Assembly: GCA_008632985.1 (NCBI GenBank)
Contig: QPGO01000185.1
Span: forward strand, 1-64,000
Length of the DNA stretch: 64,000 bases
Origin: Psammoneis japonica
Lineage: Eukaryota
Reading direction: 5' to 3'
In this document: positions 1-55,833 of the stretch, piece by piece
Layout: each line of letters begins with the position of its first letter
Position numbering within the stretch: the first letter of the stretch is position 1
The notes under the pieces: generated by a model
Database searches by the model: none
Told to the model about the DNA's origin: nothing
The model's input: only the letters and a program-made list of their open reading frames with translations
Made by a program: the position numbers and the translations under genes

Positions 1-3000
1 TGTGTCAATTCCACTGCACACAAGTTCGTGAGACATGACACACTGTTGATTGTTGTGGCTCTTGACATTGGCACCATTGAGAAAACGGTGGCTGCAGAGT
101 TGCCATGTTGAGGTGGTTTTTTGTGGTTTCTGGCTGTGGCACGCCATCGGCAAATTCGCATTGAGACTGAGTCACGCTTGTCAAGTTGGCATGGCTGTTG
201 CTTTGCACATCATGTGCCAACCATTCTCAGACCCATCACAGTCATGGAAATTGAGGTGCAATTCAGGTGTAATTTGGGGGTGTAAAAACACGCATCACAT
301 GAATTCATGCACCCCAAAATTACACTCAATTTTCTCACGACTGCAAGAGTGTGAAATTTGATGTCTGCAATTCTGTGAAAAATGACACATTCATTGAGTG
401 TGTGCTCCTCAAAAATTGTTGACAACTGAGCTGGGATGACTCCGTGTCTCCAATTGCAATCAACTCATTTGCATGCAAAGCTGAACATTCCATTGATGGC
501 ATCAAAACACCGTGGCATTTGGCGGCTCTGCTGCAACCTTGTGCATGTCAAATCATTGTTCTGACAAGTCCAGTCCACTTGCAATGATGTGATCAACATC
601 ACATGTTGCTGTTGCATCCACAGCCAAGGTTTCAGAGACCACATGACGTGTTTTTCTTCTGAAAATGGCATGAACTTGCCTTCATTTTGTTGTCCATTGA
701 TGGCATTCTCATCATTTTTCACCATTCATTTCTTTCACAAACATGTTGCAACAGTTCCCCATCAAGGAGTTCTTGCATCTCTTGCTGGTTGGAGTTTGTT
801 GTTGGTTGTTGGTTGCCATTGTTGTTCGTTGAGATTGTTGGCTGACGTTGTTGTTCGACACTCTGATGTTTGTTGCTGTCATGGACAACATTGAGTCTGT
901 TTTTGAATGAAAAATTGCAGGCACTCACAAAAAATTGCAGGCAAAAATTGCATGCCTCAGAACAGGCAATTGTTGGCTGTAATTTTTTGAGGGTGCACAC
1001 ATTCTCACACCCCAAAACCACATCCCGAATCACACCCCTTCAACACAACTGTGACGGGTTGGGCCAACAGCAAAAAAAGGGCGTTTGGCAAAAAAAATGA
1101 CTCAGCATCATGAAAATGCACACCTCATCATCACCGCTCTTTTGTAAAATCCATCATGTGGAGCTCGGAGGGAGAGGTGGGGTTTCCCAGGTTGGTCAGG
1201 GGCTCGAGCCTCATTGATCACCACAGAGCCTCCAAGGGCCGCTGTGCTGGAGACTTTGTTGATCGGGGGCCTCAATCAATGGTTGGCTTGCAGAAACCTT
1301 CCTCTGAAAACACAGAGCAGCATGCACAGGGGGGGGTGACCACCAGTCTCTGCTCTCTGGCCAGGGCCCTCTGGCCCGGTTGGAGAGAGGGCATTTCACA
1401 AATGCTGCAACACCACAGCACATCGCAGGCCCTGCTGTGCACTGCAGAATGCAAGTGCAAGCATTGTGCAGTTGCTTGCAAGGGGCAAGTCTGTGCTGTC
1501 CATTTGGTGACAGCTCCCAACTTGTTTTTGCTGCTTGTCAAAAAAGTTAGCACAAGATCGTTTCTGGGACACAATTTCACTCTGAATCTAATGGGCCACC
1601 TCCCACCTTCTGAAAATTGAGCCTTGAGTGTCTTTTGAACAGATCAACTTTTGGCAGGCACCCCAAGCAAATCTTTTTCCACCAAAATTGCTTGGCTCTT
1701 TGTGCGGTGCAATGCGCACCAACACAGCACCCAACAAAAAGACAACCAACATGGCACATCGCTGCTCTGAGTCATTGTGATGGACAGCACCCCCATGCCA
1801 CACAGGGTGATCATTGACACGACAAAGTGTGTTGTGACAGCTTGGTTTGGTTTGTTGTTGCATTGGCCTTGTTTGTTTTCATGTCTTCACTTGCTGGCCA
1901 TCACATTGGCATTTCTTGCATCATGACAGGTGCAACCGATGGTCACAAACAGAATCTGTGCTGTCATTTTTGTTGTCTGCAGGATGGAATCTGGTGGAAT
2001 GTCAAACAAGTGGGTGAGCATGCACCACAATGCTGTTGTTCTGTTGCATTGGATTGTCCCTTTTTGCACCTCACATCCCCTCAGCTGGCACTTGCTTTTT
2101 GTGCCACTGTTTTCTGGCTTTTCAGCACAAAATCAGAGTCGTTTGTGGTGTGGCATGATGGACATGAACAACAGAAAGCATGTCCATGCTTGCCTTCAAT
2201 TCCCTTGACATTTCACCTCCAGTGCTGTCAGAAATTGCAGGTGTTTCACGTTTCTTGTGCTTGTCGAATCAAAGAAAACAAGGTGATCTTCTGCTGATCT
2301 TGTTTGCACCCATTTGCAAAAGACCAGCCCTTTGCTCATTGTCCACTGAAAACATTTTTCTCTCTTGTTCACTTGCACAAGCTCACATGCACCACGCAAA
2401 GAACACATCCTGCACTGTGGTCCTCTCTCAGAGTGTCTTGACAAGGAAGTTGCAGCAAGGGAGATGTCCAGGCAGACAAGGCTCTCTTGGCCAATGAGAA
2501 CAAAAGTGTTGAGCAGAAAACTGCCAATGCAATTTAAGGGTGTTGCTGTCAACACATCTAAAACACACATTGAGCACAACAAAGCGCAACAACCGCCAGC
2601 TGAAAGTTGGCAATGTGCGTGTCTGTCATCTGTCGTGCACACACTGCTCTCTGTGCCACAGCTTGATTGAAGAATGTGCACCTTGCAGCTGTGGAAAATG
2701 CTCTTTCTCTGCAAACATGGTCTCACACATGGAAAGACCTGTTGACCAAAGAAAGGGAGGAAGAGGCTTGTGCGCAGGAAGAAGACCTTGTGAATGACAA
2801 GAAAGTGATGAGGACATTTGACCACATGCGTTGGTGCGCAGTGCAGAGGCACAAAAACATGCACCAGTGCGTGATGCATGAAATCCATTGAACAAAGAGA
2901 TGACAACACAAACTTGCTTTGAAAAAACAACAAAAGCTTGACTGCATCCATCGCTTTCACCCCCCATCCATGCTTGAAATCCAACAGCATCAAACATGTC

Positions 3001-4535
3001 AACAGCTTCCAAACATGATCTTTCAAAAGGAAGAGTGACTTCTTCAAATTGGTGTGCATCCTGCTGTTTTTGCAGTGTCACCAGCACTTGCACCTGAATC
3101 CAAGCAAAAAGCACTGCTGTGGCAGTCCACAGCCACACCATCAATGACACTCTCCATCTGCTCTGAAATGCAACAAATGAGCACAGCCAGAAAACATGTG
3201 CCAGTGTGCAGCACCAAGGCATTGCATGAAATGTGTTGAGCAACAAATGACAATGCAAGAGACAACAATGTGTCTTGCTTTAACAACAAAACAAAAGCTT
3301 GCCTGCATCTCTTCTGCCCCCCTTCCACAATTCTGAGCATGACTCACAGCTGGGGTGTCTCAAACAGTGACAACAACAGCAGCAACCATGTGAGTGCAGT
3401 CAAATCATTGCAGAAGAAAAATTGGCAATGACAGCAACCACGACATTGAAGTCAAAAATTCCACTGGAAAATGGAGGACATCACACCTGCCGTGGTGGTT
3501 CTGTGACAATGGCGAGTGCAACTGCATCATTGCAGCCATTGGCATCACTGCCATTGTGGTGTGTCGTGGGTGCATGTTGTGAACAAAATGTGTGCAGCCA
3601 CACACTGCAAAAAAAAACACTCCAATCTATTTTGGCAAACAAAGAGTTAACTTTTTCCACACCCTTGGGATAAATTTTTTTGTCCCGGCATTTTCTCCAT
3701 TCAACTCAAGTGCAGTTGTCATTTTGTTGTTGTTTTTGCATTGCATCACACATTTCTTGGTGCAAAACTGTTGCACTGTTGCTTTGAACAGAAAATGTTG
3801 ACTTTCCTCTTTTTGTCAGCAACCTCAGAAGAGTGACCCGGCTTGACACATTTCGACCTGCGGACTTTCAGCTTGGACACTTGTGAAGCAGGGTGCACAG
3901 CCCTGCTGGCAAAACCTGTGCACAATGCAAAACTTTGAACATGACCAAAGATTTTGGAAATTGTTGCCAAAAGTCACTCTTCCATGGTGCCCACATGCGC
4001 TTCCCCAGCATGCACGTGTCTGCCCATCACTTTTCTGTGCCCTGTTGCCATGGCCCTCCATTCAGATGTGTCGCCCGGGTCTGTGCAAGGCACAGATCTC
4101 TTTGCAATTGTCCAAACCACAGATCCAAAACATGTCCCAGGGCACGCAGTGCCACCAGACAAAACTGTCACGGTTGAAACAGCTCACACTTGTTTGGCAT
4201 TCTTCGCCATTGAAAATTTTGTTCAAACATGGCAATCGCGCAAAACTGCACATGGGTGCTGAAAAAGTCAATGGAATGATGGTGTTCCAAGGTGTTCGCA
4301 AAAAATTTTGCTCAAGGAGATTTTTCCATCTGATGGTGACAATGAACGGTGATGCCATCTCCTCCTCAGCTGTTTGCCTTTTAGTCTTGCAGCTTTGTTG
4401 GCGCACGCAAGACACTGTTGTGCATGCGCCGACGAAGTTTCAATGTCCAACTCCAGTCAATCACAAACCAGATGGCTTTGCCATTTTCATCTCAGAAGCT
4501 GTTGCCAAACGGACAGCACCGCACAGTAAAAAATG
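1..4535. repeat. Hypermutated repeat block 1 (TpA- and CpG-depleted decayed elements)
   Basis: About 15 TA dinucleotides in 4.5 kb by eye, few CG, strong TG/CA excess. 2440-3335 is homologous to 54120-54945 on the opposite strand. No coherent gene. Confidence 0.85.
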
Positions 4536-4682
4536 TGTAGAGTAGGGCCCTAGTAGTAGGATTCTACTACCTACGTAGGTTTCCCTGGTCACCCGGAATT
4601 GAGAAAAGCAAAAGAACTCCGGGACGGATCGATCTCTTCGCGCGTGACACTTTTGTGGCAAAACGCAATACCGTACCGTACC

Positions 4683-29125: not shown

Positions 29126-32113
29126 CTAGGTCACGAACGTTGGACCCACCAAAGAATCGTTGGCGTTCTTCCAGTGAAGAAAACGTTGTGTTGTCGCGTG
29201 GTCTGATTGTGAGTCTTGAGCGCTACGGTATCCCTGACTATGGCTCGGACGAAGCGTCCATGTAGAGAAGAGCCCCTGTTGCGGGTGCTGTTGTCTTTTT
29301 TTGCTGTCGGTGCTAACATCACAGTCGTCGTTGGCTGTGCCACAAACGCCGTCATTCATTCGAGGTCATTGTCGCTGTTGCTGCTGGCTCTGCGCCCACA
29401 TCTGGCTGCTTTCTTCTTCACAGTTTGAAGCTTCTCCCAGATGGAGCAAATGGCTCCCACTCCATTGTCTGCCTTTGAGTTTCCTTGGGTCACCCGTTGA
29501 TTGTCCTTTGCAACACCTGTGAGGCATTTTGCTTCTTTGGCTTGACAAGTTTGTTGTGCTGTGCTGCCATCTCATTGCGCTCTTCCACCAAATGGAAAAT
29601 GTGCTTGAGTGCCACGTGCCGCAGACTTCAAAACATCACATGCGCGTCCTGGCCATGCGGTGCAATTTTGGGCAGTCTTGCTTGTCATTTTGGCGGTTGG
29701 CTCCATCCAGACATGCACGCTCTTCTTGATTGTGCAACATGTGCAAATGCTTGGGATTGTGGATGTTGTCCAGCACCTTCACGACCTTCCCTTTGAGCTG
29801 GCAATCGATGGCAGCACCAAATGGGTTGTGCCCAGACGTTGATTGCCACACAATCCTGCACTCAGTTTGTCATCTTGAGCAAAATGTGCAGGGAAGTTTC
29901 TCAAAGATGCTTGCTGCTCAAGAATGCCTGCACTGGTTGAGTCCTTTGAGTGAGCATCAACAACTTGTTTGCATTCATGGCGGCTGCTTGAACCTCAGCC
30001 CATGGCACACATGTCGCTGTCATCTGCACAGTCGCCCGAATTTCACGATGCATGCAGTCTGTGAGATGTCCGATGGCGGCTTCAAGACTTTTCACCTTGC
30101 TGAGTGTGTCTCGCTGATGTCCCTGAGTCCCTTGGTCAACACGCCAATCTGGATTTGTTGTTTCTCTTCCACAGAGGTGCGTGTGCTCTTTTGGAAGTTG
30201 ACAGTGTTGCTTGCAATGAAGTCCTCCTTGGCCGTCTTTCCCCGCTCCATGAGCTTGTTGCTGTTGACGCGCAGCACCTTTGCAGAGCCTGCCAGCCAAT
30301 GAACAAGCCAGCCCTGGCATCCATGTGTGTCTCGACAACTTCCTTGTGGTGCACGAGCAATGTCGCAAGCATCGCTGGACAAAAGTTGTTCAAGTGGCCA
30401 CTTGGCAAAAGGGCAGAAATCCCAGCAGGTGAGAACAGGGAGAACACCCAATTGTTTGTTGGATCCAAGTTCTTGGGAGAGTGAGAAAGGAGGCATTTGG
30501 CTTGGGAACACAGACGTCTTGTCCTGGGTTGGCCCATTGGCTCAAACTTTTTCCGGCCATTGCTGCAAACAGCTTCATTGTCCAGCAGCCAAAGACAGCC
30601 GAGTCTCCCTTGAAACCCCAGCTGCCTCTGGCAATGGAGGCCCCTGCACCAAAAAACTGTTGGAAAGAAATGTTGTCAGCAGAGCCCACATGGAAACTGT
30701 GGCTCATGTGCTCCTTTGTCAATCCATTGACCTTGTCCCATGCACTTTCAAGGATGCATGAAACCTTTGCAGTGGCACCACCACTGGCCAAATTTTTGAA
30801 CTTGGGAAACACAAAGTTGGCTGTGCAATCATCATCTGCTGGAGTTGTTTCCAGGTTCCCACTGGCTGCAACTGTGCATGCTGCAAGAGCGTGGCACAGG
30901 CAAGCCAAGAAACTGTTGGCACCCACGTGCCAAGTCGTGAATCCGTTCTTTGATGTCTTTGTTTCTCGCCAGTTGCTTTCAAGTTGCTCTTGCTGTGGGC
31001 TCCATTTTGTCACCTCCCACACACACGTGCCCACCTCAGCTGTTCACCCAATGGCATGACAAAACCTGGTGGCAATGACACGATCACAGCAGCAGCGACC
31101 CTCCTTCATGAGGACATGCTCCACAGCTTCCAAAAGGTGTCGATGCAGGCCCACAGCAGAATCCTCTGGAGAGCCCCCTGCGCTCAATTGCAGCCATTCC
31201 AGCCCACATTTTCAACAATTTGTTGAGCTTGTCATGATGTTTGCTTTTCTTGCACAGCACTCCTGTTGGGAGCTTGTGCTGTTTGAGATCCGTGCAAACG
31301 ATCTGGGCTTCCAGTGGGTGCCTTTCTGCTTGCCATCCTTTTCCATCTTGTGCTCCATGAGAAAAGCACAAAATTGCTGCATCATTTTGCTGCAGCTCAG
31401 CATGGTTGTGACAGCTCCTTGCAAGTGCTTTTGCTGCAACTCGTGGAGGAGCGGGTGGCCCGACTTTCTCGCAAACACGTCGAAAGCTGCAGCGGCAGTC
31501 TTGCAGCCATCTTCAGTGTGATCAGCCTTCAGCTTCATCTTGCTGCACACCTCCTTGCTGATGTCATCTTCCTGCAGCAGCTCTGCTTCAATGCTTTCTT
31601 TCAGCTTTTCAGCCGCTCTGAGCTCTTTCTCCCTTGCGGCATGGATTCTTTGCAAACAGGGCTGCAGGTGCTGTGTTTGGTGCCTCGTCTGCAGCAAGGG
31701 CACTCTCCCCGGCAGCTCCAATGGCCTTGTTGTCACTGGTGCTCCCGCCATCAGTGCTGGCTGTTGCGCCATCAGCTGCACCTTAAGTGGGGGGGGACCC
31801 GCTCAAGAGACACGGCATGTTTGCAGCTGTTCAACCTGCCACTGTGACTGCTGAGCTGCTGTTGGTGTGACAGTCTGGTGTTTGGTTTGTTGTTGTGCAT
31901 TTGTGCCGAAGCAATGGCAGCTGTCCATCGTGCATGGTTGCGGTCGCGGTCACGGCTTGTTGCTTGTCGCTGGTGCAGGCCAGCAACAATGCGGCCGCGT
32001 GCACACGGGAGGGGAACGACGTGCGACGCACGGACATTGTGCGTCGCGGTTGGCGTCGGGAGGGGCGTCCCTCGGGGGACGCTCCGCGCCCCCCAAAAAA
32101 AATTTCTGTCCAT
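29126..32113 (-). mobile_element. Decayed Crypton-type tyrosine-recombinase element
   Basis: The minus strand reads HAIG*TAEV..WRETKTSK..CLCHALAAC..FVFP..HMSHSFHVGSAD..IARGSW..VFGC..AGKSLSQW. This is the R / HxxR / W / Y tyrosine-recombinase pattern once CG and TA changes are reverted. Element ends are uncertain. Confidence 0.8.
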
Positions 32114-32320
32114 TTCCGTTGCTTACGATCGCGCATTACAGAGCGCCTGCTTCAGAGTAACCCGTTTAGGGCAAGCGCGTACAAGACTTCAGACATGCAG
32201 ACAACGCAGACGACTGGGAGCTCGAGCAAGCAAGAAGCAAGCAGTCGAAGACCCAAGCTCGGGTTAGTTGTTGGAGTAGCATTCACATGGCATAGGAAAC
32301 GTCTATGGTCCAATCTGAAG

Positions 32321-40681: not shown

Positions 40682-41781
40682 CCTAAAGTTTGTTAATAAT
40701 TAAGTTGGGAATTGAAATAGAAATAATATCTGCAGTGCTAATTCGAAGAAGATGGGCTACAAGATAAGTGTTCTCTACGACTGCTCCAGCGTTAGAGAAT
40801 AGTTGGGATTCACCGGTAAGCAAGGTTAGAGGTTGGCGGAGCACCAACTGTCGGAAGGTCGCGCAACACGGCCCTTTTTGAACCAAACAGTCACTCGTAC
40901 TTTTTGTCGGCGATGCCTCCTGTGATGCACGAAAGCCACTAGCAGGAGGGATCCCCAGCAGTCATCTCTTCTCGGCTCGGCTTCTTTGCAAACAAGATGA
41001 CCTTGAAACACTGGGGGTCACAGCCTTGCTGCGCTGAATGGCACAGCTCTGATGTGGTGGCGGGGCGAAGATGATGCAGAACTCAATTTCCTCACCATTC
41101 AATTGACAGAACCATGCTGAGTTGATGCATGAAGACATGTGTTGTCCATTTCATATTTCATCAAAGCTTTCTCTGCTTGCAGCATGTGAGAGTCATGTGA
41201 TTTTTGATGCTCTCACTGTTTCTTGTGTGTGAAGAGAGAAGTTTTGCAATCAAACACAGGACAAAAGATCTGCGCCAAAAATCTTCCACAAGCAATGCTT
41301 GCATTGACCAAGCCATGACACAAGGTCCACAATGTTCATCAGGTTCTTTGTGAGCACTGCAAGGGCTGCTCTTTTTGTCAAAATGAAGCTGTTGCATGAT
41401 CACAAAGACACTGTGCAGGTCATTGAATGAACACACAATGTGAAGCATTGCCCAGGCGAGTTGGACAGCAAGAATGGCTGCCTTTTGTTTTGTCTGCAAC
41501 AACCAAAGCTGTTCATGTTTGTTTGCAGTCTTTTTGCTGGTGCATCCTTTGTTGGTGCATCTTGCATCTTGTTGCTTCATCTCCTTGTTCCTTTGCTTGC
41601 AGGAAATGGTGGAGATCAGTCAGAGTTGTTTCAGTCCATTTGTGTGCACCCAGGCCTGTCAAATCAAATTGCAGCACAAGGTGCACCACACAGCACAATC
41701 TTTTGAACCAAAGGGCTGCTCCATGCCACTGGCACACACTGCAGACATGCATCTTGCAACAAACACAAGTTTCTCCATCAT

Positions 41782-42826
41782 GGCCACCCCTGAATGACCA
41801 GAGCACACAAGTGCCACAGCAAACAATCATCACCAGACTCAACTGTGCTGGATTCTTGGCATCATGCAAGCTGGCACAAACAACAAGTGAGTGCAGCAAG
41901 TCCTGTGCCCATTGCTCATTTGTGCTGTTCTCTGTCTCTCAGGATCTCAGGATTCTTCTTTTGCTCAAATGTGGTCACGCTGATGATCTCATGGAGCCTG
42001 TGTTGTTGGGCAAGCCTGATTAGATGGCCTTGTCAAAGGAAGTGTGTCTCTCCCCACCAGTGCAGCACCCTCTCCATTTTGGCAGACAAAACAAAGGACC
42101 TTTGTCTTCATGAGTCACTGCCATTGGCTGGATGTCTTTTGCCCACTGGCATCTCACTCTCAGTGCTTGTGCTGGATGTGGGCTCTGCCAGCCAAGAGAG
42201 CAAGTTTGGCTCACCCACCACAGGAGAAGTTTTTTTTGCAATGACTTGCTTTTTTTCTTGTTTGCACTGAACAGATGGATGCATGTTGTTCTTGCCACCA
42301 TCGGCCACCCCTGAATGACCAGAGCACACAAGTGCCACAGCAAACAATCATCACCAGACTCAACTGTGCTGGATTCTTGGCATCATGCAAGCTGGCACAA
42401 ACAACAAGTGAGTGCAGCAAGTCCTGTGCCCATTGCTCATTTGTGCTGTTCTCTGTCTCTCAGGATCTCAGGATTCTTCTTTTGCTCAAATGTGGTCACG
42501 CTGATGATCTCATGGAGCCTGTGTTGTTGGGCAAGCCTGATTAGATGGCCTTGTCAAAGGAAGTGTGTCTCTCCCCACCAGTGCAGCACCCTCTCCATTT
42601 TGGCAGACAAAACAAAGGACCTTTGTCTTCATGAGTCACTGCCATCAGCTGGATGTCTTTTGCCCACTGGCATCTCACTCTCAGTGCTTGTGCTGGATGT
42701 GGGCTCTGCCAGCCAAGAGAGCAAGTTTGTGGCTCACCCACCACAGGGAGAAGTTTTTTTTGCAATGACTTGCTTTTTTTCTTGTTTGCACTGAACAGAT
42801 GGATGCATGTTGTTCTTGCCACCATC
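41782..42826. repeat. Near-perfect tandem duplication, 521-bp period
   Basis: 41782-42302 matches 42303-42826 except for a TG/CA dinucleotide and two small indels. Confidence 0.95.
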
Positions 42827-42989
42827 AACCTTGGTCCTTTGGAGTTTTCAAATGGCTTTCTTTGACCCCAGCCACAAAGCAGTCTTTGCAGGCCTTGACA
42901 AATGCATGCTCTTGACAGATGTTGGGCACTTGCCACATGAAACAATGACAATCTGCAACTCCCATTTTTTTTATGAATCAATTGCAGGC

Positions 42990-43430
42990 AGTCTGGCCCA
43001 TCAACACAAAGTCACACTGTTTGAAGCACCAAGAAAAAAAAACAATGCAACGTCCATTTGGGCTCAGCAAAGGGCAACCAATGGTGCCACTGCTGGGCCC
43101 AAGCTCAGGGTGCTGTTGCAGCCACCAAGCTGCAATGGACAAGCAAACCTTTGTGATGCTGTGTGGGAAGCCACCCCAGATCATGCACTTGTGCCACACA
43201 GCAGTCTGGGCAGTCATTGTGATGGCAACAATGATGAGTCCCTTGACACTCAGCTTGGCAATCATGTTCTCATCAATGAGATGAAGAGCAGCTTTGGTGG
43301 GAAGGTCCAGCACAAGTCCTTGCATCTGGTGTGCCTTGAGAGCACAAGGATGCTCCTTGCAAATTGCCTGGCTGAGGTTGTCAATCTTGACAGAGACATC
43401 AATGAGCCAGTCAAAAGCATTTGTCATTGC
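42990..43430 (-). pseudogene. Decayed copy 1 of unknown repeat-borne ORF family A
   Basis: AFDWLIDVSVKIDNLSQAICKEHP..LPTKAALHLIDE..QTAVWHKCMIWG..TKVCLSIAAWWL, homologous to copies at 48.8 and 52.3 kb. Confidence 0.7.
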
Positions 43431-46400
43431 ACACAGTGCAGGTGCTGTGGTCAGACTGTTTGTGGATGATGGGTCAGACCCACTTTCATTGGACAACCAA
43501 ACAGATCTCTTCTCTGAGATCTGCTTCTCACTCTTTCTTGCTGGTGCACACATGTCATCACTGTTGCCAGTTTGTGGAGAGCTCTGCATCATTGTTTGTT
43601 GACTTGGCTGTCTCTGCTCTGACATGTCACAGCCTTGCATTGTGCCACATTCTTCTGTGTTGTGATCTCCACTTTGTTTCTTTGTTTGGTCTGTGGTCTG
43701 ATCAAACCCACTCCAAGTTTTTGTTCCTGCAACTGTTTTTTTTCTCTCCAAACTGCAACAGTTTTTGGGTCACAGGACAATGCTGGCCCTTTGCATGTTG
43801 CAGGAACATCTTTTTTGCACACCTCCACCATGGCACCTTGTCAAGGAGAAAAGAGTCCCATTGACACCCTTGTTAAGATGAAAGTCACTTTTCAGGCACA
43901 CCCCCATCTGCAGATGGAAGCCACCAAGCACCAAACAGAAGAACTTGCAGCAAAATGGTCATTGAGATGGATCAGTTTGTTTGATGACAAGAAACACACC
44001 CAAGCCAAGGATCACATTTGTGAGCCACTGCAGGGCTGTGTTCTAAAGCTCATTGCCCCACATTGGAGACCCCTCTGATGTCTCATCTGTTGCATTGCTT
44101 TGCAGCCCCCCCCCCCCCCTTGAAGAAGGTGAAAGCTCCAGCAGGCAACAAATCTCCATCTTGTCCATGTCACATGGCAAGATCCACCTTGCTCTCAAGA
44201 TGCATCAGCTGCAATCATTGTGGGGGTCAGTGTGGTGCATGTTCGCTGTGAACCTGATGTGAAACACAACCAGAGGAGGGGTTAGAGAGAGTTTTCTGAT
44301 CAATGTTTTCCACTGAAATGCTCTGCATCTGCACCCACAGTGGTGCCTTCCCCACCAAATTGAGCTCTGTTGATGTTGATGCATTGTGAGCTGCAACTGG
44401 CAGCATCCAAAACACCTTCAGTGGGTGGCTCTTTGACTGCCAAGAAACAGGCAACATTCACATCTTTGAGCTGCATCTGTTCAATCCAGATGCATGGCCT
44501 TTTCTAAATGTTCCACAAATGATTTGATCAGAAGGATGTCACAAACAACTTCAGAACTCATTTGCCCCATTCAATGGTGGCAACCCCTCCCCCAACAAGT
44601 CCTTTGGATGGAACAGACCACCTCATGCTGGCTGATGGCTCTCTTTTTGTGATCAATCTGATGCCCAACCACAAAGCTTTGCTTTGTGAATCAAGTTTGT
44701 GCAATGATGATTTGCCACATGGCACTCTTGCCAGTGGCATCTTGAGACTTCCAGTGGTGTGCTGCAAGGCTGACCATGGCTGCTGTTGTGGCATTCACCC
44801 ACTTTGGTGTTTCCTTCACAGCCATGGTGGTGGTTCTTGGGGTTTTGCCACTGGCAACAACAAGCTGAACAACCCACCACAACAAATGCATTTCCATTGC
44901 CTTTGGCCACCACACACAATTCACAAGCACCGGCTGCACTCCAACATGCTGTTTCCCAAGAATGGCACAGGCGGCATTGCACTGATGTTGCTTTTTGTCA
45001 TGGCAGCTGCTACAATGCACCAAAGTCCAAGCAGACCTTGTTTCAAGTTCATCTGGCCTCTGTGATGAAGCACCTGGTCCAATGGACAGTCATCCAAAAC
45101 AAGGGAATGAAGCTGTTGATTGCCAACTGCTTTGTTGTGTTCAAAGATTTTTTGCAACTTGGTGCACCCACACTTGACATTGACTCCTTCTCTTGGATGA
45201 CAAGAGGGAGATGGCCATTTGCATCAAGAACATGAAGCAGTGCAATGTTCTCAACATGAGTGGTGACATGTGACAAATGCCTCAAACACAAGCACACTGA
45301 GAAGCAGATTGCAGAGACACTTTCCCTCATGTGTTGAGAGCAACACTTTTTGTTTTTCTCAGTCAACCAGACAGCCCTTTGTCTGTTGATTGCAATGGTG
45401 CTCATGCCCCGTGTCTGAGATGTGTGATTTTCCACAGGCAATGGATGGCAAGCTCATGACAAATGCCTCACAACAAAGTGGCAAGAATGCTGCAGGACAG
45501 ACAAAAGTGCCAGTCGCTCTTTCAGTCATCTGGGAGCTGGAAGGGCTCTTGTTGCCAAAATTGTTGAACTTGGAAATCAGGCCAACTTGCTTTTTGGTGC
45601 AAATGTGGTCTTCTTGTTTGCAGCCTGAGCACTGTCAGGGGGGAGGGGCATGTTTTGTACAGCACTTCACTTCTTTTCTCAGTGCATCCAAAAAGTGTCC
45701 TTCAGGCAAATGTTTCTTTGGAGTTCAAGCCATTCTTGTTTGAGCTGCTGCAGCTGTGATTGCTGGTGTCACATTTTGTTGGGTTCTTGTTGCAGACTCT
45801 GTGTCAGTCTTGCATGTGGATGGCTTGGAAGAAGCAGATGAGGAGATGCAGCTTCAAAGCTTGGGGCATGTGCCCAAAACCAAAGTGGCAGATGCTGCCT
45901 CACTAGAAAATCAGGTGGTGTTGGTTTCTCTGCACTGGCTGCTGCATCTGCAACATTTGTTGGCCTTGCAGTGTTGCGGCCACTGGTCAGCTGAGCACAG
46001 AGCAGATGCAAGCAAGAATGATGAAGGGTGTTCATTTTGCTTCCACTGGTCACCTGGGCAATGCAGTCAACAAGAATTTGCACCAGGAACTGAGTGAGAC
46101 ATCATGCCCTTCTGCTCAGGACCATGCCAATTTCCCCATTCCTCAAGCTTCCCCAGCTTCAACAAAGCATTGCATTTAAACAGAAAATGTGCCACTTCTT
46201 GTCAAACTTGCTGTGCCAGCAATCTTGTGGCCAGCATTTTTTGCTTGTCAAGCTTCAGTTGATCCTTTTCCAGTGGGTCCCATGAAGGCAGTGCTGCTCC
46301 ACATTTCCTGACAGATGGCCACAGGCCCTGCAATCATTGGACAACACCAACTGGCTGCATCTTGTGTGGGATGCCATGGCAAAAGAAGATCTGGCGCAGA

Positions 46401-47053
46401 TTTTGTGTCAGAGAGTTGTGCCACCATGGCTGCAATCTTGGCATGGCAGGCTTGAAAGATGCCATTGGGAGCACATTGTTGTGGAATGCCTGCTTGAGAC
46501 AAGGCCACTGTGCTCTGACCATGAAGCCATGTTACGTTTGAGCAATCAAAATTGTGGGGGGGTTCTGCAAAGTGTGTGGGGCACATTCTCAGATCCCCTG
46601 ATGTCACCAGTGCTGCCTCCATGTTTTGCCAATGCCCCCCACTTCTTGCTCTCTCAGTGCCAACACATCTGTCACTTGTCTCAGCTGCAAAGATGCACGC
46701 ACCACTTGGGCCTCCACAGTTGCTTGTGGTCAACCTTGTTGTCCACTTCATCAACACAATCATCAACCACATGTCAGACTTTTGGTGTCCACAGCTGTTC
46801 ATTGCATCCCATCTCAGGGCAGTGACCACCGTTCACAAATGCCATTTGAAAACATCTTGAATGGAGGAGGTGACTCTTGAGATGTGTTGCACACTTGCAA
46901 TGCATTTTTGGCTCCTCTTGGGATGGCACAGAGGACTCCCACTCCTCTTGTGTGTGCACAACATTCCTGTCAAGATGGAGCACAAAACTCACAAGACCAT
47001 GTTCCTCACAGTGTCATCTTCTGAGTGAGCTCCATTGTCCAGCTCAGACAACC

Positions 47054-47107
47054 TTCAGGTCCACACCAAACAGAAAATGATTCAGGTCCACACCAAACAG
47101 AAAATGA
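47054..47107. repeat. 27-bp tandem repeat, 2 copies
   Basis: (ttcaggtccacaccaaacagaaaatga)x2. Confidence 0.9.
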
Positions 47108-48537
47108 ATTGCCAAATTTTTTCTTGTCCACAGTGAGAGCTCATGCAATGGAAGAAAAGGAGCAAAGAACACAACTGTCAGCATCAACAGACTCCACAGC
47201 CATGCACTCCAGTGCAGTGGCAACCAAGGTGCAGTCTCTGACAACTGCTGCTCAAGACTTCAATGCACTCCTCTTCTTGTGGCTCTCTGGCTCCTCACCA
47301 CAATCAAAACAGCAGAGTGATTCATTGATCCTGGCAATGATTGATGGCAAGGCACTGTCCCACAGACACACAAACATGCACACATGGCCAACCCTCAATC
47401 AGTGCAGTCTTCAAAAAAGAAAGGTCATGAAAGCCATCTTTTCCTGCTTGACAATGGCAGCACTGTCCCTCTTGATGACCACATGCTGGTCAGAGCAGCC
47501 TTTGAGAATCATCCCCTCCTCACTGTCATGGCCATCTTTTTTCCATGCTGTCTTTTCTCCCAATCCCTGTCACTGCAGACACATGCTTTGACCAAAGCAT
47601 TTGGTGTTGTGGGGCCCATTGAAACATCATTTCTGCACAACTCTTTGTCTTTTTGAACCCCCTGGCAACTTGGATCTAAAGCAAACCAATCTCAGCATTC
47701 AAAATCTCATGACAACTCTAAAATTGAGAGAGCAGTTTAAGAGCACACACTGTTTTGGGAACACAAAGCATCAAGGAGCACAAAAGAGGAACCTTTCCAA
47801 AATGCTTGATGTGCAAAGACTCACTTCTCTTGATGCATCTTCACATTTGGCAGCTTCAACAACCTGATCTGCATTTTCATGGCATGTGCCACAAACTGTG
47901 ACACCCAAGCAACCAGCAAGTTGACAAATGCATTGTCAGAGCTGTTGCCAAACTCTCTCAGACATTGAACAAGATTGGAAAAGATTTTGCAGCATTGGCC
48001 TGATCAAGTTGCTTCTTGACACTTTCACAAGCTGCTTGAGCAGCAACAAGCTCTGCATGCAAGCATGGCATGTGTTGGCCAGTGCTTTGTGCAGAACAAA
48101 CTGGGCCATCTAAGTCATTGCTGTTCACAATGCTGTTCTTGGAAGGGGATCAAGCATGAGACAACAGCGAAAGATCAGAGCTCCATTGATTTGGTTGACA
48201 GAATGTGCGCATTGGCATCTCACGGCATCTGGCACATGAGCTGCAACTCACACACACCCCAAAGCCAGTCTGTTCTGATGGACCTGCCATGTCACACCCA
48301 TCACAAGCAAGGTTGTTCTCCCTGGGAAGAACATGATGCAATTGTCCATCCCTTCTGTTGGGGAGTGCCTTGTGCCTTTAAACAAGCTGCAATTGTTTTT
48401 CCATGCACATCAGAAAAACACCCCTGACAGTCTGACATTTTTCCTGTCACAGATGAAGTCAAAAATGGGAGCCCACGAAACACATGCCACTGCATCAGTT
48501 CTGCATCCTGGCATTGTGAACAAACAATTTTGCACAG

Positions 48538-48568
48538 TCAGGGTTGGGGTTTAGGGTTTGGGTCAGGG
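48538..48568 (+). repeat. Degenerate interstitial telomere-like (TTAGGG)5 array
   Basis: TCAGGG TTGGGG T TTAGGG TTTGGG TCAGGG. Confidence 0.7.
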
Positions 48569-48829
48569 AGCGGAGCTTTTAGCAAAGCGCCAGTTTGGGA
48601 TGACATTGAAAGAAGGGGCGACTGAGCAAGCAAGCTTCCATCCAAAAAGTCAACCGCACAGTGGGACCAAGTTAATCTGTGACAAGTTCGCACCCCACAT
48701 GTGTGGTGCCATGCTTGATGCAGCCCTCACAGAGCCGGCAAGCTTTGCACTGTCAGTTTCCAGCATGAAGACTTGGGAAGGGCTTGCCCTCTGCAAAGCA
48801 TCTCTTTGCATGTCTTGGCCAAACACAGC

Positions 48830-49100
48830 AAGGCTGGCAAACAAGCTTCCCACTTTCTCCCATTCCATTCATTTTGGCACATGTGAATGTGCTGCAGACT
48901 TGTGCAAAGACCAATGTGATGATGATGAAGAGAACAGCTCCCTCCAAGAAAAAGTCAAACCTCGCGGGAGGGGCTTTCATGTTGATGATTCTGATGCTTT
49001 CGACTGGGTGATTGACATCTCAATTGAAATTGACAACCTCTGCCAGGTGATGCAAAAGGAGCAACCTGGCACTCTGGGGGAGCTCCACAAACAAGGCTTG
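48830..49100 (+). pseudogene. Decayed copy 2 of ORF family A
   Basis: KLPTFSHSIHFGTCECAADLCKDQCDDDEE..DAFDWVIDISIEIDNLCQVMQKEQPG. Confidence 0.7.
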
Positions 49101-50814
49101 CCAAGAAGACAACAAACACCATGGTCCTTGCATCATTTCTTGGTCAATGAAGCATTGTTTGTAGAAGGCAAATAACGTGTGTGTTGTGTCCCATGTTTTG
49201 AGCACCAAACTTGTCTATGTGCAAGAAACAGCAAGAGTGTGAGACATCCAAAACAGATTGAAATGCATGAAATGCACAACAGAGGCAGGAACATGTGTGG
49301 TGTGACTTGAAGCTTGCTCAAGAACAACATGGCATTTGTGTGTGACAAGCAGAGAAAGCTTTGATGAGATCTGAAATGGTTGCACTGCACACCTTCATGC
49401 CCAAATCTAATGCAGTTCCATCAATCAAATGGCCAGGAATTGCATCTGCATCATCTTTGCCCCACCACAGCTTTAGAACCACACCATTCAGTGAGGCAAG
49501 ATGGCAATTTTTCATGTTCATTGCTGGCCAAAAGGAAAAGGGAAAAAAGGAGGGGATTCAACCATCCAACACACACAAAAATTGACCATGCAAGCTGGGC
49601 CAGAGATTCATTGGCTTTTTCTTTGCAGTCTGGGGTGGTTGCTGCAGGTGCAAAAGGTGGGTGCACATTGCAACTTGTTCAGGGTGACCATTCACTCAAA
49701 GGCTGCATTTAGGAAGGGCCAGGGAGAAGAAAAATGCACAAGCTTGGCTTGCTTCAGACCCTGGCATGTTGTGCATCACTGTGCAGAGAGTCTTGTTGCA
49801 GCCAGGCACATCTCACAGGAGGTCTCATGCTCGGTGTGCTCCTCAATGACTCTTGGACCCAACCTCACTCAGAGCTTCTTGATGTCAACAACAAGTTGAC
49901 TCACAGTGCTGACAAAGAAGCTTGAGGAGCAGGCTTGAATGCCATTTTGCATCTCTGTGGTGTGTGTGGGAAGGCACCAACAGGAGCAGCTCCTGCCAGC
50001 TCCAGCTTTGGCTTGGGGGGTCTTTGCAGCCATGGTGTCTGCCTCAAGCTGGTGCTCTCAAACACAAGGGGTGCTGTGATGTGTGGGGTTGGGCAGCCCA
50101 ACCAGCTTGCCTGCTGCACTCCTTGCTCATGGCACACAGCACTGTCATGGCTGCAACAAGGGTGATTTTGTGGTTGGGCTGGTGTTTTGGAGGTCTGGGT
50201 GCACCCTGGGAAGCCAAAGAAGGGCTCAGCATTGTGCTGCCAGTGCCAGAAACATGCTCTGCCCTGTGACTTGCAGCTCTGGGAGCTCACAACCTCAAGT
50301 TTGACATCTCAGTTGGCAGCTCAGCAAACAGCCAGTCTTGACCACAGCTTGGTGTGTGGGTGGCAGGTGGCACTGTTGCCATTGGGTTTACAAATGCACA
50401 ACACACCTGTGGCACCAACAAGACCTCAGCAGTCTTGCCTGACTTACAAAGCTTTGACGATGACAAGCTTTCACTTTCACTTTCACTTCATCAGTGCAGT
50501 TGGCATTTTTACTTGCAAGCCAAAAAAGTCGAGATCGGCACTTTGAACGGTTCTGGAGGCGGCAGCTGACGTGGGGCCATTGGGGAGATGCCGAGTGTGT
50601 GTTTTTGCGCGCGAAGCGTGCAAAGCACACTTGTCTTAGCCCAAAATTTCCGGTGGAGAAAAAGCGGGCATCAAGGTTTCACAGGTGGTGTTCCTGGGCC
50701 CACGCACTGAGACAGTAAAAAGAGACGACTGACTGCACAGTGAGTGGTGATTGGGGTTTGGTGTGACCCCAATTCAAAAAAACTCAAATGGGCGTGTGTG
50801 TGTGTGTGTGTGTG

Positions 50815-50832
50815 NNNNNNNNNNNNNNNNNN
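50815..50832. other. Assembly gap (N run) flanked by (TG)n and poly-G
   Basis: 18 N characters. Confidence 0.99.
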
Positions 50833-52329
50833 GGGGGGGGGCAGAAAAGTTTTGCATGAGCTGTTTTGTCAGTGCTCACAGGATGGCCTGGGTTGCTGTG
50901 GATTTTCTCAATGGAAGCCAAGTGGCCACAGCACAAGAGAAAACAATTTTGTTTTTGAGCATCTGATGGACAAAGTCTGGGCACTCAGACAGCTGTCCAC
51001 ATCTCCTCAGCTCCGGCAAGAAGCAGCAGGCTCCAATGGCAGCATTGTGCGTGCTCATGCACTCATGCGCAAACAAGCCTCAAGCTGCAAGTCATGAGAA
51101 AAAGCCACTCAACCTCCCAACCAGCTGCAGAGCAGTCAAATCATGCCACTTGAGAGTCCAAGGTTCAAAACAAGTTTGGCACATCTGCTCTCTTTTTGTT
51201 TTGTGTGCTCAAGAGCCTTTGCTTTGTTCTCCCCACAACAAGTTTTTGGCATGTGAAAGGAGGCTGCAAATTCCAGATGGGTTGATTTTTCTCTTTGGTG
51301 CAAAGGGTGTGCATTGCATGTTTTGATTGGATGCCCACGCAGAGATCTGAAAACCAGCATTGTTGCAAGCATTGGAAGCAGAGAGAGAGAAAACCAACCA
51401 ATTGACACCTCAAAATGAACATCTAAATGCTGCATGAGTGGTCAACTGGTGCAGAAATGCAATGGTGATTTTGCACTTGACATCCTGTTTTACCATGTCA
51501 ATTTTGCTTGTGCCCAAAAACTCTGCAGCATTGACCACTCAGTGTGTCTGCCAGCTTTCTTTGTGCCAAAGTGGAAATTTTAATTGGAGGGGAGCTCGTC
51601 AACCATTTGGCTGTCTTTGTGCCAAAACAGAAATTTGAATTGGGGGATGCTTGTCATCAACCAGCCACGAGCATGAAATCTAAGACTGCACCCCCCTCCC
51701 GGCTCCTCCTGCCCCCCATCCCTTGCTCATGTCTTGGTCAGTGAAGAACAGTGGGATTGCACTGTGCCGTTGGTGTGCAGAAAACCCTTCTGACGGCTCT
51801 CTCATTTGCTCTTTGGGAAGCAAATGACAAAGCTCCCATGTTTGAACAATTGGAAAAATGTAAAAGACAAGAAGATGTGCAAATGTGCAGCTGTGTTGTT
51901 TGCTGTCATTTTGTTGTGTTGCACATCATCTCAACAAGTGTGCTTGCTTGTGTTTTTCATCAGCAAGTGTCGCGTCAACTCTGATCTCAAAAAGAAGCAA
52001 GATCACAACACAGTCAGGGAACTCAAGTGAGCTGGAGACCTCAAGGGTGCAGTCAAGAGGGCAAAACAGAGCACACCAGCCAGATGTGCACAACAGCTCA
52101 GCAAGAGTCCAAAACTTGAGCATGCCAGGCAATCTGTGGAGTGCCTGGATGGCCTTTGACTCCTGGCAAGGAAATGCACCAAGCCTGCTGCATGTGCTGC
52201 TGCTGATGGAAGCATGGACATTTGCTGAGGCTTGTTCGCCATTGTCATGAAGGGATCATCTGCCAACAGTGCAAGGGCAGCAGCAATGAATGCTTGCAAA
52301 GTGCACAATGCAGTGCACAGGCATTCCCA

Positions 52330-52970
52330 CAAGCCTCAACCTGGACAAACTTCCTGCTTTCTCCCATTCCACTCATTTTGGCACATGTGAGTGTGCTGCA
52401 GACTTGTGCAAAGACCAAAATGATGATGATGAAGAGAGCAGCACACTCGGAAAGTCCAAGCTCATCAAGAAGAGGGGCTTCAGTGCTGATGACTCCAATG
52501 CTTTCAACAGTGTCATTGACATCTCTGTCAAAATTGACAACCTTTGCAAGGTGATTCACAAGGAGCATCCTGGAACTCCAGGAGAGCACCAGGAGCAAGG
52601 ACTTGCACCAGACTTTCCTGCCAAAATTGTCCTTCATCTCATTGATGAGAGCCTCACCCAGCCAAGCTTCAAGGGGTTTGTTGTTGACATCATGATGAAT
52701 CTCCAGCCAGACACCCAGACTGCTGTGTGGCGCAAGTGCATCTGGGGCAGCTTCACATGCACCAAGGTTTGCTCATCCATTGCAGCTTGGTGGTTGCCCG
52801 AGTGTGTTGAGCTTGGGCTCAGCAGCAGCCACTGTTGTTTGCCCTTTGAAAAAGTTGCATGGAACTGTTTCGTTGGGCATTTGGAGGATCTTTGGCAATT
52901 TCATTGCAACTTTGCATTGGGCTGGGTTCTTGCCTGCGATGGATCCATCAAACCACCCATGGAGGTTTAA
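52330..52970 (+). pseudogene. Decayed copy 3 of ORF family A
   Basis: KLPAFSHSTHFGTCECAADLCKDQNDDDEE..VIDISVKIDNLCKVIHKEHPG..FPAKIVLHLIDE..QTAVWRKCIWGSFTCTKVCSSIAAWWLPE. Confidence 0.7.
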
Positions 52971-54119
52971 GATCATTGTTCTGCATGACAAGTGCCAGGC
53001 TTTCATCAAGAACATGTTCATCAAGGCCTGAAGTGACTGCTTTGGGATCAAGACATGTGGGTGCATGCAACTGACCAACATTGACAGCTGCAAGAGCATC
53101 ACTTGCCTCGCTGTCAACCTCAAACACATTTGGCAGTTTTTTCTCAAATCGCATTTTCAGAGGAAAGGAACAGCAAAAGCAAATTCCTCACATGTGACAA
53201 GGGGGGCAAGACACTGAGGGTTTGTTTGGATGACAGTGTTTGAGGGAGAGACACAATCATTGAAACACACACATCCACTTTGTCATTCAATGGTTTTTTC
53301 CCCACAAAATGGAGGTGATCACTGCTTGTCATGTGCAAAAATCTTGAAAACTTTGGAGAAGAGCCACGCTGGAACAAACTGCAAGTGTTGTGCTGCACTG
53401 GCCCGGCATGATGGGAGAACTAAATGCACATCAAATTGAGGCATGCGCACAACAAGTGCACAGCAGCACAATGTCGGACAGATGACAGTCACACATTTGT
53501 TGTGATTTGCGCGACAAATTGCCGTTGACGCCAATGATGATGATGACATTTTCTCAAGCTCTCACAGGATGACTTTGCAGTGGGCACTTGTCACATTGAT
53601 CAACTGCACTGTTTGAAACACAAACATGCAAAGAAAGTCCCCCTGATGAAGTCTCAATCATTCAACAATGAATGCATGACAGTGACAGGTCGGAAAACAG
53701 AGCTCAGCATTGGTGTGATGTTTTGCTTTTGAACGGAGGTTGATCTTGGGGACTTTCATGACTGAACGCGTTCACAAACTTGGCAAACCAAATGTCCACA
53801 ATGACAAAAGACTCTGGGACACGTCACTGTCATTGCGACAATGCACCACCGCCATGTCACTGATTTTTGGCGATGATGCATGCAGCACGCACGAAGTTTC
53901 CAGCACAAAAAAAAAAAACAGGAAATTCCAATTGTCTTGCCATGATCAGCTTGTTGTGCAAATGCCTCATGACTCTTTGTTTGCCAGAATGGATTAGAAC
54001 GGATTTTTTTGCACGGTTGGACGCGTGCAGATTTTTTTTGCCACACGACGCACTGCATGTTGGCAATGCCAAGAGCCGCAATGGCGTTGTCTTCACCATT
54101 GTCACAGAGGACACATGCT

Positions 54120-54945: not shown

Positions 54946-55833
54946 GTGGCATGTGCCGGGACACACAGAATTCTACAGGCAAATTCTCAAAAGTCACTGA
55001 AACACCACATTCAGGCTTCTTGCAATCAAAATTTCATCAACAACTGTCATTTGACATCGTGTTCTTCCAATTGTCAAATGTGGTTAGAAGCAGCAGTGGC
55101 TTTCCACCGTGCTTTCGTCGTGCCATCAATTTTGTGACACAGCAAAGTGTGTGTGCACACAAGTTCACACCAGGTTCCACCACAGTGTCCCCCATTTGAT
55201 CAACTGAAAGCATTTGCAGGTGCAGATTTTTTCAAGCCCCTCAAAATGAGAACAAGCGGGGCTGCAGATTCTCATTTTTGCACAGATTTTCTGTGACAAT
55301 CAGGGTGGGCAAAAAAAACATGAGATGAGTGCCTCGCTCAATTTTGACAATGCCTTAGAATCAGATTGGGTGCAGCACTGCAAGCAAAAGCAGGGCACTG
55401 GGTTTTCTGAAGAAGAAGACCTTCGCTTGTTTCTTGATTCTGTGCACTTGTTTCTTGACTCTGTGCAGGATGAGTGTTCTTCAGAATTAACGCAGAACCA
55501 TCCAAGCTGGAGAGTGGACAACGATCTCATGGAAAAGACATTGCAATCACATCGGGGCTGCAGAAGAGGACCCTCTCCACTGGCAACTGCTGTAGCCACT
55601 GCATGTAGAGCACATGCAGAGATTCTACAGATCTTACATGAACTCGTTCAATTGACACTTGACTTTGACAAAAAAGCAAAAAAGTGACACTTTGCGCGTT
55701 AGATGCGCGACGTGCAATCTGACACGTAGAAGTCTACGGGGAAATACTCGAAAATTACTGAAACACCATTTCAGGCTTCTTGTAATTAAAAATTTTGCAG
55801 ATCAACGATGGTAGCAAGGTAAATTTACCGTCG

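What the first reader, a model, noticed from the sequence alone, without database searches (positions are those of the whole stretch)
1..4535. Block 1: surviving TpA sites are almost all in TTA/TAA context
Seen by eye: about 15 TA in 4.5 kb, where base composition alone predicts a few hundred. Contexts are GTAA x5, TTAA x3, CTAA x2, TTAG x2, TTAC, ATAA and CTAT, so 14 of 15 have a 5' T or a 3' A. Survivors elsewhere agree (31784 TTAA, 42021 TTAG, 43874 TTAA, 44044 CTAA). Inference: the process has flanking-base selectivity like an enzyme or a DNA-shape-sensitive step. Alternatively, new TA arise preferentially at A/T tracts.
Basis: partly seen in the sequence, partly recalled or inferred. Interest (0 to 1): 0.7.

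Follow-up and report, generated by a model that had tools for sequence, protein, structure and literature searches.

The report
Flank code of diatom TpA hypermutation
In this diatom's transposon DNA nearly every T-A step has been rewritten to T-G or C-A. The few left sit where the rewriting is slowest: TA followed by C or T is hit about 2.5 times faster than TA followed by A or G, the same bias that laboratory A-to-G DNA editors show, which hints at the kind of enzyme responsible.

Summary
Observation confirmed. Block 1 has 15 TA (about 327 expected); 14 of 15 have 5'T or 3'A (P 2e-4 to 3e-3). It is a nest of non-autonomous transposons in a diatom. TA-rich sister copies show TA>CA/TG loss after insertion; 9 of 10 alignable survivors are TA in other copies, so most are leftovers, not new. 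Rates from 915 sites in 55 copia copies give the rule, read as A>G on 5'-T-A-N: 3' pyrimidine 2.6x faster than purine, 5' A 1.7x faster, TAAA slowest. It predicts retention and product in an independent MITE (rho -0.62, 0.70). So the slow class is Y-TA-R and TAAA, not all TTA/TAA; 6 of 15 survivors also sit at element or block ends. The process matches the TpA hypermutation reported in Bigelowiella (bioRxiv 2026), whose main text gives no flank analysis. TAY>TAR matches TadA-derived DNA editors and opposes fungal Tad2/3 and ADAR; the enzyme is unidentified (deaminase about 55%). This scan noted the phenomenon and similar flank rules many times elsewhere in this genome.

The parts
1..4526 (.). 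TpA-erased, CpG-poor block (left end runs off the contig start); 14 TA inside, a 15th at the border (4527)
230..1060 (+). Family A: ~830-bp MITE with ~17-bp terminal inverted repeats and 3-bp TNA target duplications in sister copies (Harbinger-like by recalled TSD type; no transposase seen). Converted copy; survivors 270, 283, 321, 980 are ancestral TA at or near its ends
1723..3646 (+). Family B repeat (aligned part), ending at a TTAA. Survivors 2535, 2559, 3281, 3628 are TA in 3/4, 4/4, 3/3 and 2/3 other aligned copies
3647..3650 (.). TTAA target-site duplication at the B/C junction, kept (TA in 7 of 7 aligned copies)
3651..4267 (+). Family C: ~620-bp non-autonomous element with inverted ends flanked by TTAA in sister copies (piggyBac-like by recalled TSD type). 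Survivor 3671 is CA in 4 of 4 other copies, probably a new TA
4268..4271 (.). Right target-site copy of C, now TCAA: converted after insertion
4527..4600 (.). Sharp border to TA-normal DNA (10 TA in 4501-4600, against 1 in 4001-4500)
29315..32123 (.). Second TpA-erased segment (1 TA, TTAA at 31784)
40941..55592 (.). Third TpA-erased segment (46 TA)
55876..57242 (.). Fourth TpA-erased segment (1 TA, TTAA at 56130)

Best explanation
A host process converts A:T to G:C at TpA steps in transposon DNA after insertion. It hits one strand or the other at each site until almost none are left, and the survivors are the sites it handles worst. SHOWN: the change is TA>TG or TA>CA; it happens after insertion and largely independently in each copy; it takes both strands about equally and without strand-coordinated runs; it runs far ahead of CpG decay. 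Its rate depends on flanks: read as 5'-N-T-A*-N-N, a 3' C/T is fast, a 3' A/G slow, a 5' A fast, T at -2 or A at +2 slow, TAAA slowest, an adjacent CpG slows. INFERRED (about 55%): the chemistry is deamination of the adenine to inosine by a TadA/ADAT-fold enzyme that reaches transiently opened DNA in silenced elements; inosine is then copied as G. Part of the flank code (the symmetric +/-2 and A-tract terms) probably reflects how easily the duplex opens. INFERRED, weaker: targeting starts at CpG-rich internal regions of elements and spreads. Confidence that loss is flank-selective: about 0.95.
For: 45 of 52 aligned TA of TA-rich MITE copy L008 are CA/TG in the window copy, and the 4 kept are ancestral. 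Between 5' and 3' LTRs of 11 copia copies, 63 TA were lost in the 5' LTR and 3 in the 3' LTR. A>G per opportunity is 0.14-0.35 after T and 0.0025-0.008 after A, C or G; CpG C>T is 0.016-0.024. Flank effects with site-bootstrap intervals: +1 Y/R 2.56 [2.31-2.93], -1 A 1.73, +2 A 0.52, -2 T 0.55, -1 G 0.95; similar without family Z and in family X alone, and in all four families. YTAR > RTAY retention holds at codon positions 2 and 3 and outside the longest ORF in all four families. The model predicts the independent non-coding MITE (retention rho -0.62, n=48; TG share rho 0.70, n=47) and the rank of 10 tetramers in old blocks (rho -0.92). Rare A>G at non-TA adenines shows the same 3' bias (207 before Y, 95 before R; 2.4x, P 7e-13) and rises with local TA loss while transversions stay flat. 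TadA-derived editors are best at TAY and worst at MAR (PMC10879117, passages). No PF02245 match (AAG/MPG, which I recall removes hypoxanthine from DNA) in G000, control 4 of 14.
Against: Sequence cannot tell A>G from T>C on the other strand, so a thymine-centred reading (R-T*-A) fits the same numbers. No dedicated enzyme was found: one ordinary ADAT2, one TadA-like gene and two A_deamin loci. The Asn cited for DNA editing is present but shared with yeast, vertebrate and trypanosome ADAT2. TACG, the E. coli TadA motif, is not the best site (1.23 against 2.2-2.3 for TACC/TACT). The ~50-100x preference for 5'T is much stricter than I recall for engineered editors, and here AA is the best non-TA context whereas 5' A/C with 3' purine is worst for ABE. 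A 3'-pyrimidine bias could be a generic base-flipping effect, and the leak at non-TA sites could partly reflect copy age. EndoV is present. The model under-predicts TTAA in old blocks (31% seen, 9-17% predicted at 3-7% survival) and over-predicts CTAC (7.5% against 15-25%) and CTAG (6% against 10-14%).
Confidence: 0.55

Rival explanations
1. Thymine-centred chemistry: a TET/JBP-type or other enzyme modifies T in R-T*-A, and the product is copied or repaired as C.
For: Formally identical to the A>G reading in sequence data. Oxidised thymine on repeats in dinoflagellates is recalled, not checked here.
Against: No PF12851 match in G000, but the control never rang, so this shows little. The motif agrees with a known adenine-deaminase bias when read as A>G.
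Confidence: 0.17
2. Error-prone patch synthesis (polymerase-eta type, WA>WG) triggered by T:G mismatches from 5mC deamination in methylated repeats.
For: TA>TG is a Pol eta hotspot (PMC7884765, passage). Among non-TA adenines AA is highest (3.7 per 1000, against 2.5 and 2.1). CpG decay rises with TA loss, 4 to 16 per 1000.
Against: TA is hit about 50-100x more than AA. Transversions are flat (0.61, 0.67, 0.62 per 1000). Neighbouring hits are not strand-clustered (0.516 against 0.507 expected at <=10 bp). TA loss approaches completion where CpG is about 98% intact, leaving too few triggers.
Confidence: 0.1
3. Some other lesion or enzyme not yet imagined, for example a methylated adenine at TpA that is then deaminated or miscoded, or a deaminase too divergent for the profiles used.
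For: No obvious dedicated enzyme. Only 11, 4 and 6 candidates were scored, so divergent folds would be missed.
Against: No positive evidence.
Confidence: 0.12
4. Survivors are mainly new TA made at A/T tracts.
For: 13 of 85 TA in converted MITE copies are not at known ancestral sites, 4 at indels, and 11 of the 13 are TAA/TTA. Site 3671 looks new. TTAA exceeds the survival model in old blocks.
Against: 72 of 85 are ancestral; 9 of 10 alignable block-1 survivors are TA in other copies. Loss rates measured directly show the same bias.
Confidence: 0.03
5. Survivors reflect position or selection at element ends (inverted repeats, target sites), not flanking bases.
For: 6 of 15 block-1 survivors lie at element or block ends. 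Terminal GTAA/TTAC sites are kept at 0.40, internal ones at 0.12. The left TTAA of family C is kept in 5 of 5 copies.
Against: The rule was fitted mostly on internal copia sequence and holds there. The right TTAA of C is converted in 3 of 5 copies.
Confidence: 0.03

Closest known systems
TpA-restricted hypermutation in Bigelowiella natans (Mettrop et al., bioRxiv 10.64898/2026.01.13.699255; parts 1-4 of 5 of the main text read; supplements closed)
   Same: Same change (TpA>TpG/CpA, A:T>G:C), same strict dinucleotide, confined to foreign or mobile DNA; ADAT2-type deaminase proposed, not shown.
   Different: There it was measured de novo in two viral insertions of a rhizarian, with only modest depletion (Rho 0.45). 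Here a diatom, DNA transposons and LTR elements, near-complete erasure (o/e 0.05), 56% of a 200-kb sample affected. The main text has no flank analysis ('context', 'trinucleotide', 'flank', 'diatom' 0 hits); its Fig. 2B and Table S2 were not visible and may show one.
TadA-derived adenine base editors (ABE7.10/ABE8e) on DNA (PMC10879117, passages)
   Same: A>G in DNA, best at TAY; 3' purine disfavoured.
   Different: Engineered and Cas-targeted. 5'T preference is moderate (recalled), and 5' A/C with 3' purine is worst, whereas here TA dominates about 50-100x and AA is the best non-TA context.
Fungal Tad2-Tad3-Ame1 mRNA editing and animal ADAR (PMC4817773 passages; PMC11087585 passages)
   Same: 5' U/T preference; ADAT-family enzyme retargeted by a cofactor.
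   Different: RNA substrate. +1 preference is A~G>U>C (fungi) or G first (ADAR), the opposite of the 3' pyrimidine preference here.
Repeat-induced point mutation (RIP) of ascomycetes (features recalled; DNMT4/RID link from PMC9998398 passages)
   Same: Repeat-confined, dinucleotide-specific, dense transition mutagenesis of transposons.
   Different: RIP is C>T and creates TpA; this removes TpA. Homology sensing and sexual-stage restriction are untested here.
E. coli TadA mRNA/tRNA editing (PMC13170351, passages)
   Same: UA core with a 3' pyrimidine.
   Different: Needs UACG; TACG is not the preferred site here.

Membership tests
Bigelowiella-type TpA hypermutation | A:T>G:C transitions almost only at TpA | tested here: met
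   A>G 0.14-0.35 after T, 0.0025-0.008 after other bases; 45 of 52 TA converted to CA/TG
Bigelowiella-type TpA hypermutation | Confined to foreign or mobile DNA, host genes spared | tested here: met
   Block 1 is repeats; neighbouring gene DNA has about 40 TA/kb
Bigelowiella-type TpA hypermutation | Acts on the integrated chromosomal copy, both strands | tested here: met
   LTR pairs 63 vs 3; converted target-site copy; sense/antisense 1.07
Bigelowiella-type TpA hypermutation | About 1000-fold raised de novo rate, on in only some lines | not testable with these tools
   Needs mutation-accumulation lines
Bigelowiella-type TpA hypermutation | Same enzyme and same flank preference | not testable with these tools
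   Enzyme unknown in both; the preprint's mutation table was not visible
TadA/ADAT DNA adenine deamination | 5'-T and 3'-pyrimidine preference as in TadA-derived editors | tested here: met
   +1 Y/R 2.56 at TA, 2.4 at non-TA adenines; ABE best at TAY
TadA/ADAT DNA adenine deamination | ADAT2 with HxE...PCxxC and the Asn linked to DNA editing | tested here: inconclusive
   Present in L144 but the Asn is shared by ordinary ADAT2s; one copy found
TadA/ADAT DNA adenine deamination | Inosine in DNA; dependence on the enzyme | not testable with these tools
   Needs chemistry and genetics
E. coli TadA native specificity | UACG/TACG optimal | tested here: not met
   TACG 1.23 against TACC 2.16, TACT 2.31, TATC 2.66
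Fungal Tad2-Tad3-Ame1 / ADAR editing | UAG/UAA preferred (3' purine) | tested here: not met
   TAR is the slow class (literature)
RIP | C>T transitions, TpA gain | tested here: not met
   TpA lost; non-CpG C>T 0.001-0.006
RIP | RID/DNMT4 methyltransferase and homology-triggered targeting | not tested
   27 PF00145 matches in G000, 6 loci scanned by Pfam, not assigned to DNMT families
Polymerase-eta A:T mutagenesis | WA hotspots with transversions and strand-coordinated patches | tested here: not met
   TA >> AA, flat transversions, no same-strand clustering

The most novel reading that the evidence does not exclude
A natural adenine base editor: a host TadA/ADAT-family deaminase is recruited to silenced transposons, deaminates TpA adenines in chromosomal DNA with a T-A*-Y code, nucleates at CpG-rich internal regions and spreads. 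It would be a genome defence shared by stramenopiles and rhizarians that has rewritten about half of this genome.
Probability: 0.4. Interest if true: 0.9.

Novelty: new variant of a known kind. Interest (0 to 1): 0.62.

Why it matters
I recall no natural enzyme shown to deaminate adenine in chromosomal DNA at scale; adenine base editors had to be evolved. A quantitative, strand-resolved flank code turns an anonymous mutational scar into a testable fingerprint. It can be checked at once against the 231 de novo mutations of the Bigelowiella study, and against any candidate enzyme in vitro. It already disfavours ADAR-like, fungal Tad2/3-like and polymerase-eta explanations. Inferred consequences: the fastest targets (TAY) are tyrosine codons when in frame, and the slow class includes TTAA, the piggyBac landing site, so the bias may shape which transposons can still insert in these regions. 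The interest is tempered because the core phenomenon is in a 2026 preprint and the enzyme is not identified.

Tried and rejected
(1) Assembly artefact: rejected; short-read contigs match pieces of the block and its border, and LTR pairs and target-site copies show directional change. (2) Codon-level selection as the source of the flank effect: rejected; the ranking holds across codon positions and outside the longest ORF and in a non-coding MITE. (3) Shared ancestry of copies: product concordance 0.57-0.62 in X, Y1, Y2 but 0.70 in Z; dropping Z leaves the effects unchanged. (4) Transcribed-strand bias: none overall (1.07; 0.91-1.27 by family). (5) Processive, strand-coordinated action: not seen. 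(6) Symmetric duplex-only model: worse (LL -9957 against -9738, in-sample and pseudo-replicated; -1 G effect null). (7) Pfam scan of 11 long open frames in depleted DNA: only two sub-cut-off hits; such frames are expected where TAA/TAG are lost. (8) No TA-rich copy of families B or C was among the loci fetched, so these are polarised only by sharing between converted copies; survivors 1145, 1548, 1589, 4382, 4527 had no aligned copy. (9) A second 200-kb genome sample was not obtained, so the 56% figure rests on 20 fixed-position stretches from large contigs. (10) Literature searches for a diatom report returned only the Bigelowiella preprint as relevant; subscription journals are largely not covered. 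PMC13101598 and PMC10661471 (passages) gave nothing on ABE flank preference. (11) Run X2 covered 9 of 30 bins and adds nothing for the block. Rows dropped: 43 overlapping TATA sites of 958; MITE loci L026 and L047 as duplicates; 10 duplicate loci plus the window's own copy in the block-1 site table, 12 loci in the search-loci table; sites with only 1-2 TA and a single product (55) left unclassified.
Full report
1. Observation. Window 1-4535 has 15 TA where composition predicts about 327; CG is also low (o/e 0.29) and CA and TG are near 1.9. A two-state segmentation finds four depleted segments (1-4526, 29315-32123, 40941-55592, 55876-57242) with 62 TA in 23,354 bases. 14 of 15 with a 5' T or 3' A beats four nulls (P 8e-6 to 3e-3), and the bias repeats in the window (54 of 62) and in CpG-poor depleted DNA from 20 other 10-kb stretches (179 of 208; null 0.46). 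In that sample 111,379 of 200,000 bases are depleted. Short-read contigs reproduce parts of the block and its right border without differences. Named relatives of a G000 gene are diatoms, so the host is a diatom.

2. What block 1 is. A search of G000 splits it into three repeat families. A (230-1060) is a MITE with terminal inverted repeats and 3-bp TNA duplications. C (3651-4267) has inverted ends and TTAA on both sides in sister copies; B ends at the same TTAA. The labels Harbinger-like and piggyBac-like rest on recalled target-site types; no transposase was found. TA-rich copies of A exist. Against L008, 45 of 52 aligned TA read CA (26) or TG (19) in the window and 4 are kept; these 4 are all the window copy's TA. 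The right TTAA of C reads TCAA in the window, so the change came after insertion.

3. Old or new TA? Ten block-1 survivors align to other copies; 9 are TA in most of them, and one (3671) is CA in 4 of 4. In 17 converted MITE copies, 72 of 85 TA are at sites that are TA in TA-rich copies. New TA therefore contribute about 15% or less, and 11 of those 13 are also TAA/TTA, as expected if they pass the same filter.

4. I fetched 60 copia loci and used 55 copies in four families, giving 958 inferred TA sites, 915 without overlap. A>G per opportunity is 0.14-0.35 after T and under 0.01 after other bases; CpG decay is only 0.016-0.024, so TpA loss is separate from, and faster than, 5mC decay. A likelihood fit with a dose per copy and kilobase, read as A>G on 5'-X-T-A-N, gives relative rates for N = A, C, G, T of 0.27, 0.73, 0.39, 1.0 (X=A); 0.13, 0.36, 0.16, 0.60 (C); 0.16, 0.34, 0.14, 0.45 (G); 0.16, 0.40, 0.13, 0.36 (T). 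Bootstrapped over sites: +1 pyrimidine 2.56 [2.31-2.93], -1 A 1.73, +2 A 0.52, -2 T 0.55, -1 G 0.95; TAAA is 0.15 of the mean; a neighbouring CpG slows (CGTA 0.35; TACG 1.23 against about 2.2 for TACC/TACT). A site survives only if both strands are slow, so the protected class is Y-TA-R plus TAAA/TTTA. In the window, YTAR is 40 of 63 survivors (21% of CA/TG sites), RTAY 2 of 63 (25%), TAAA/TTTA 32 of 63 (15%); block 1 has 0 of 15 RTAY. All 15 block-1 survivors fall in the slowest 35% of predicted rates.

5. Controls. Cross-validated likelihood improves out to three flanking bases. The ranking holds across codon positions and outside the ORF, without family Z, and in family X alone. The copia model predicts the non-coding MITE: retention rho -0.62 (48 sites), share of TG product rho 0.70 (47 sites), and the order of ten tetramers in old blocks, rho -0.92. 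Against the model: old blocks hold more TTAA (31% of 548; 9-17% predicted) and less CTAC and CTAG than predicted; different ancestral composition, target-site TTAA, loss of protecting CpG and new TA may explain this, untested. Terminal MITE sites are better kept than internal ones of the same tetramer (0.40 against 0.12), and 6 of 15 block-1 survivors are at element or block ends, so this block overstates GTAA.

6. Clues to mechanism. No sense/antisense bias (1.07) and no same-strand clustering point to many separate hits rather than processive runs or repair patches. Private A>G changes at non-TA adenines show the same 3' bias (207 before Y, 95 before R; 2.4x) and rise from 27 of 22,023 to 202 of 74,578 opportunities with local TA loss, while transversions do not: the process appears to leak at about 1%. 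In family X, loss is polar. It is strongest just inside the 5' LTR and fades toward the 3' end whatever the orientation or the 3' flank. Between LTRs of 11 copies, 63 TA were lost at the 5' LTR and 3 at the 3' LTR; in L111 and L115 the 5' LTR is nearly intact while the region behind it is erased. Targeting thus seems to start inside the element.

7. Comparison with what is known. The same mutation type was measured de novo in Bigelowiella natans viral insertions, with ADAT2 as an unproven candidate (bioRxiv 10.64898/2026.01.13.699255; parts 1-4 of 5 read). Its main text has no flank analysis and does not mention diatoms; figure and supplements were not visible and may bear on this. Searches for a diatom report found nothing else. 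TadA-derived editors are best at TAY and worst at MAR (PMC10879117, passages), which matches the 3' rule. Fungal editing prefers +1 A or G and ADARs +1 G (PMC4817773, passages), the opposite. E. coli TadA needs UACG (PMC13170351, passages), not optimal here. It works like RIP in logic but fails RIP's defining C>T test. G000 has one ADAT2, one TadA-like gene and two A_deamin loci; the ADAT2 Asn is present but common. No AAG/MPG match, EndoV present, no Tet_JBP match with a silent control, many C5 methyltransferase matches, not classified; diatom DNMT4 is related to RID (PMC9998398, passages).

8. Earlier notes of this scan. The phenomenon was noted many times in this genome, and survivor rules such as TTAA, YTAR, TAY>TAR and YY-TA-RR were noted on other pieces. 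I obtained my rates before reading those flank notes; they are not independent support. My data refine YY-TA-RR: at +/-2 it is T/A specifically, not any pyrimidine/purine.

9. Verdict. Real and non-random. New variant of a recently described kind: TpA hypermutation of mobile DNA, here near-saturating in a diatom, with a measured flank code that favours, but does not prove, a TadA/ADAT-type DNA adenine deaminase. Interest 0.62.

Noticed in passing
L099-L111, L115, L118 with L158-L168 (copia family X): TpA loss is polar: it starts in the CpG-rich region just inside the 5' LTR and spreads both ways; 63 vs 3 TA losses between 5' and 3' LTRs in 11 copies; a depleted 3' flank did not spread into L107.
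   Followed up: partly
L157 (G000:C301) 1069-2163, - strand: A C5 DNA methyltransferase frame lies inside TA-depleted DNA, with similar matches on C297; possibly carried by a mobile element.
   Followed up: no
window 55593-55905: A 283-bp TA-normal island inside depleted DNA, ending at a tRNA-Ala(CGC) gene (55834-55905); a piece like the tRNA's 3' end and tail recurs near 56130.
   Followed up: no
window 41794-42794: Tandem duplication with about 521-bp period; both copies carry the same survivor (42021, 42542), so it probably arose after erasure.
   Followed up: no
L079-L098 (copia family Z): Higher product concordance between copies (median 0.70, up to 0.87) suggests that partly converted elements went on transposing.
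   Followed up: partly
G000 whole genome: No AAG/MPG glycosylase match while EndoV is present; dCMP deaminase region present twice (C41, C317), possibly haplotigs.
   Followed up: no
window 4527-4570: Immediately outside the block a very TA-rich stretch with a short inverted repeat precedes normal DNA.
   Followed up: no
window 50815-50832: Run of 18 N inside the third depleted segment.
   Followed up: no
window 21874-26230, 32760-33611, 58618-59664: Ordinary host genes between blocks: ORC5, a TBC RabGAP, Sua5.
   Followed up: no
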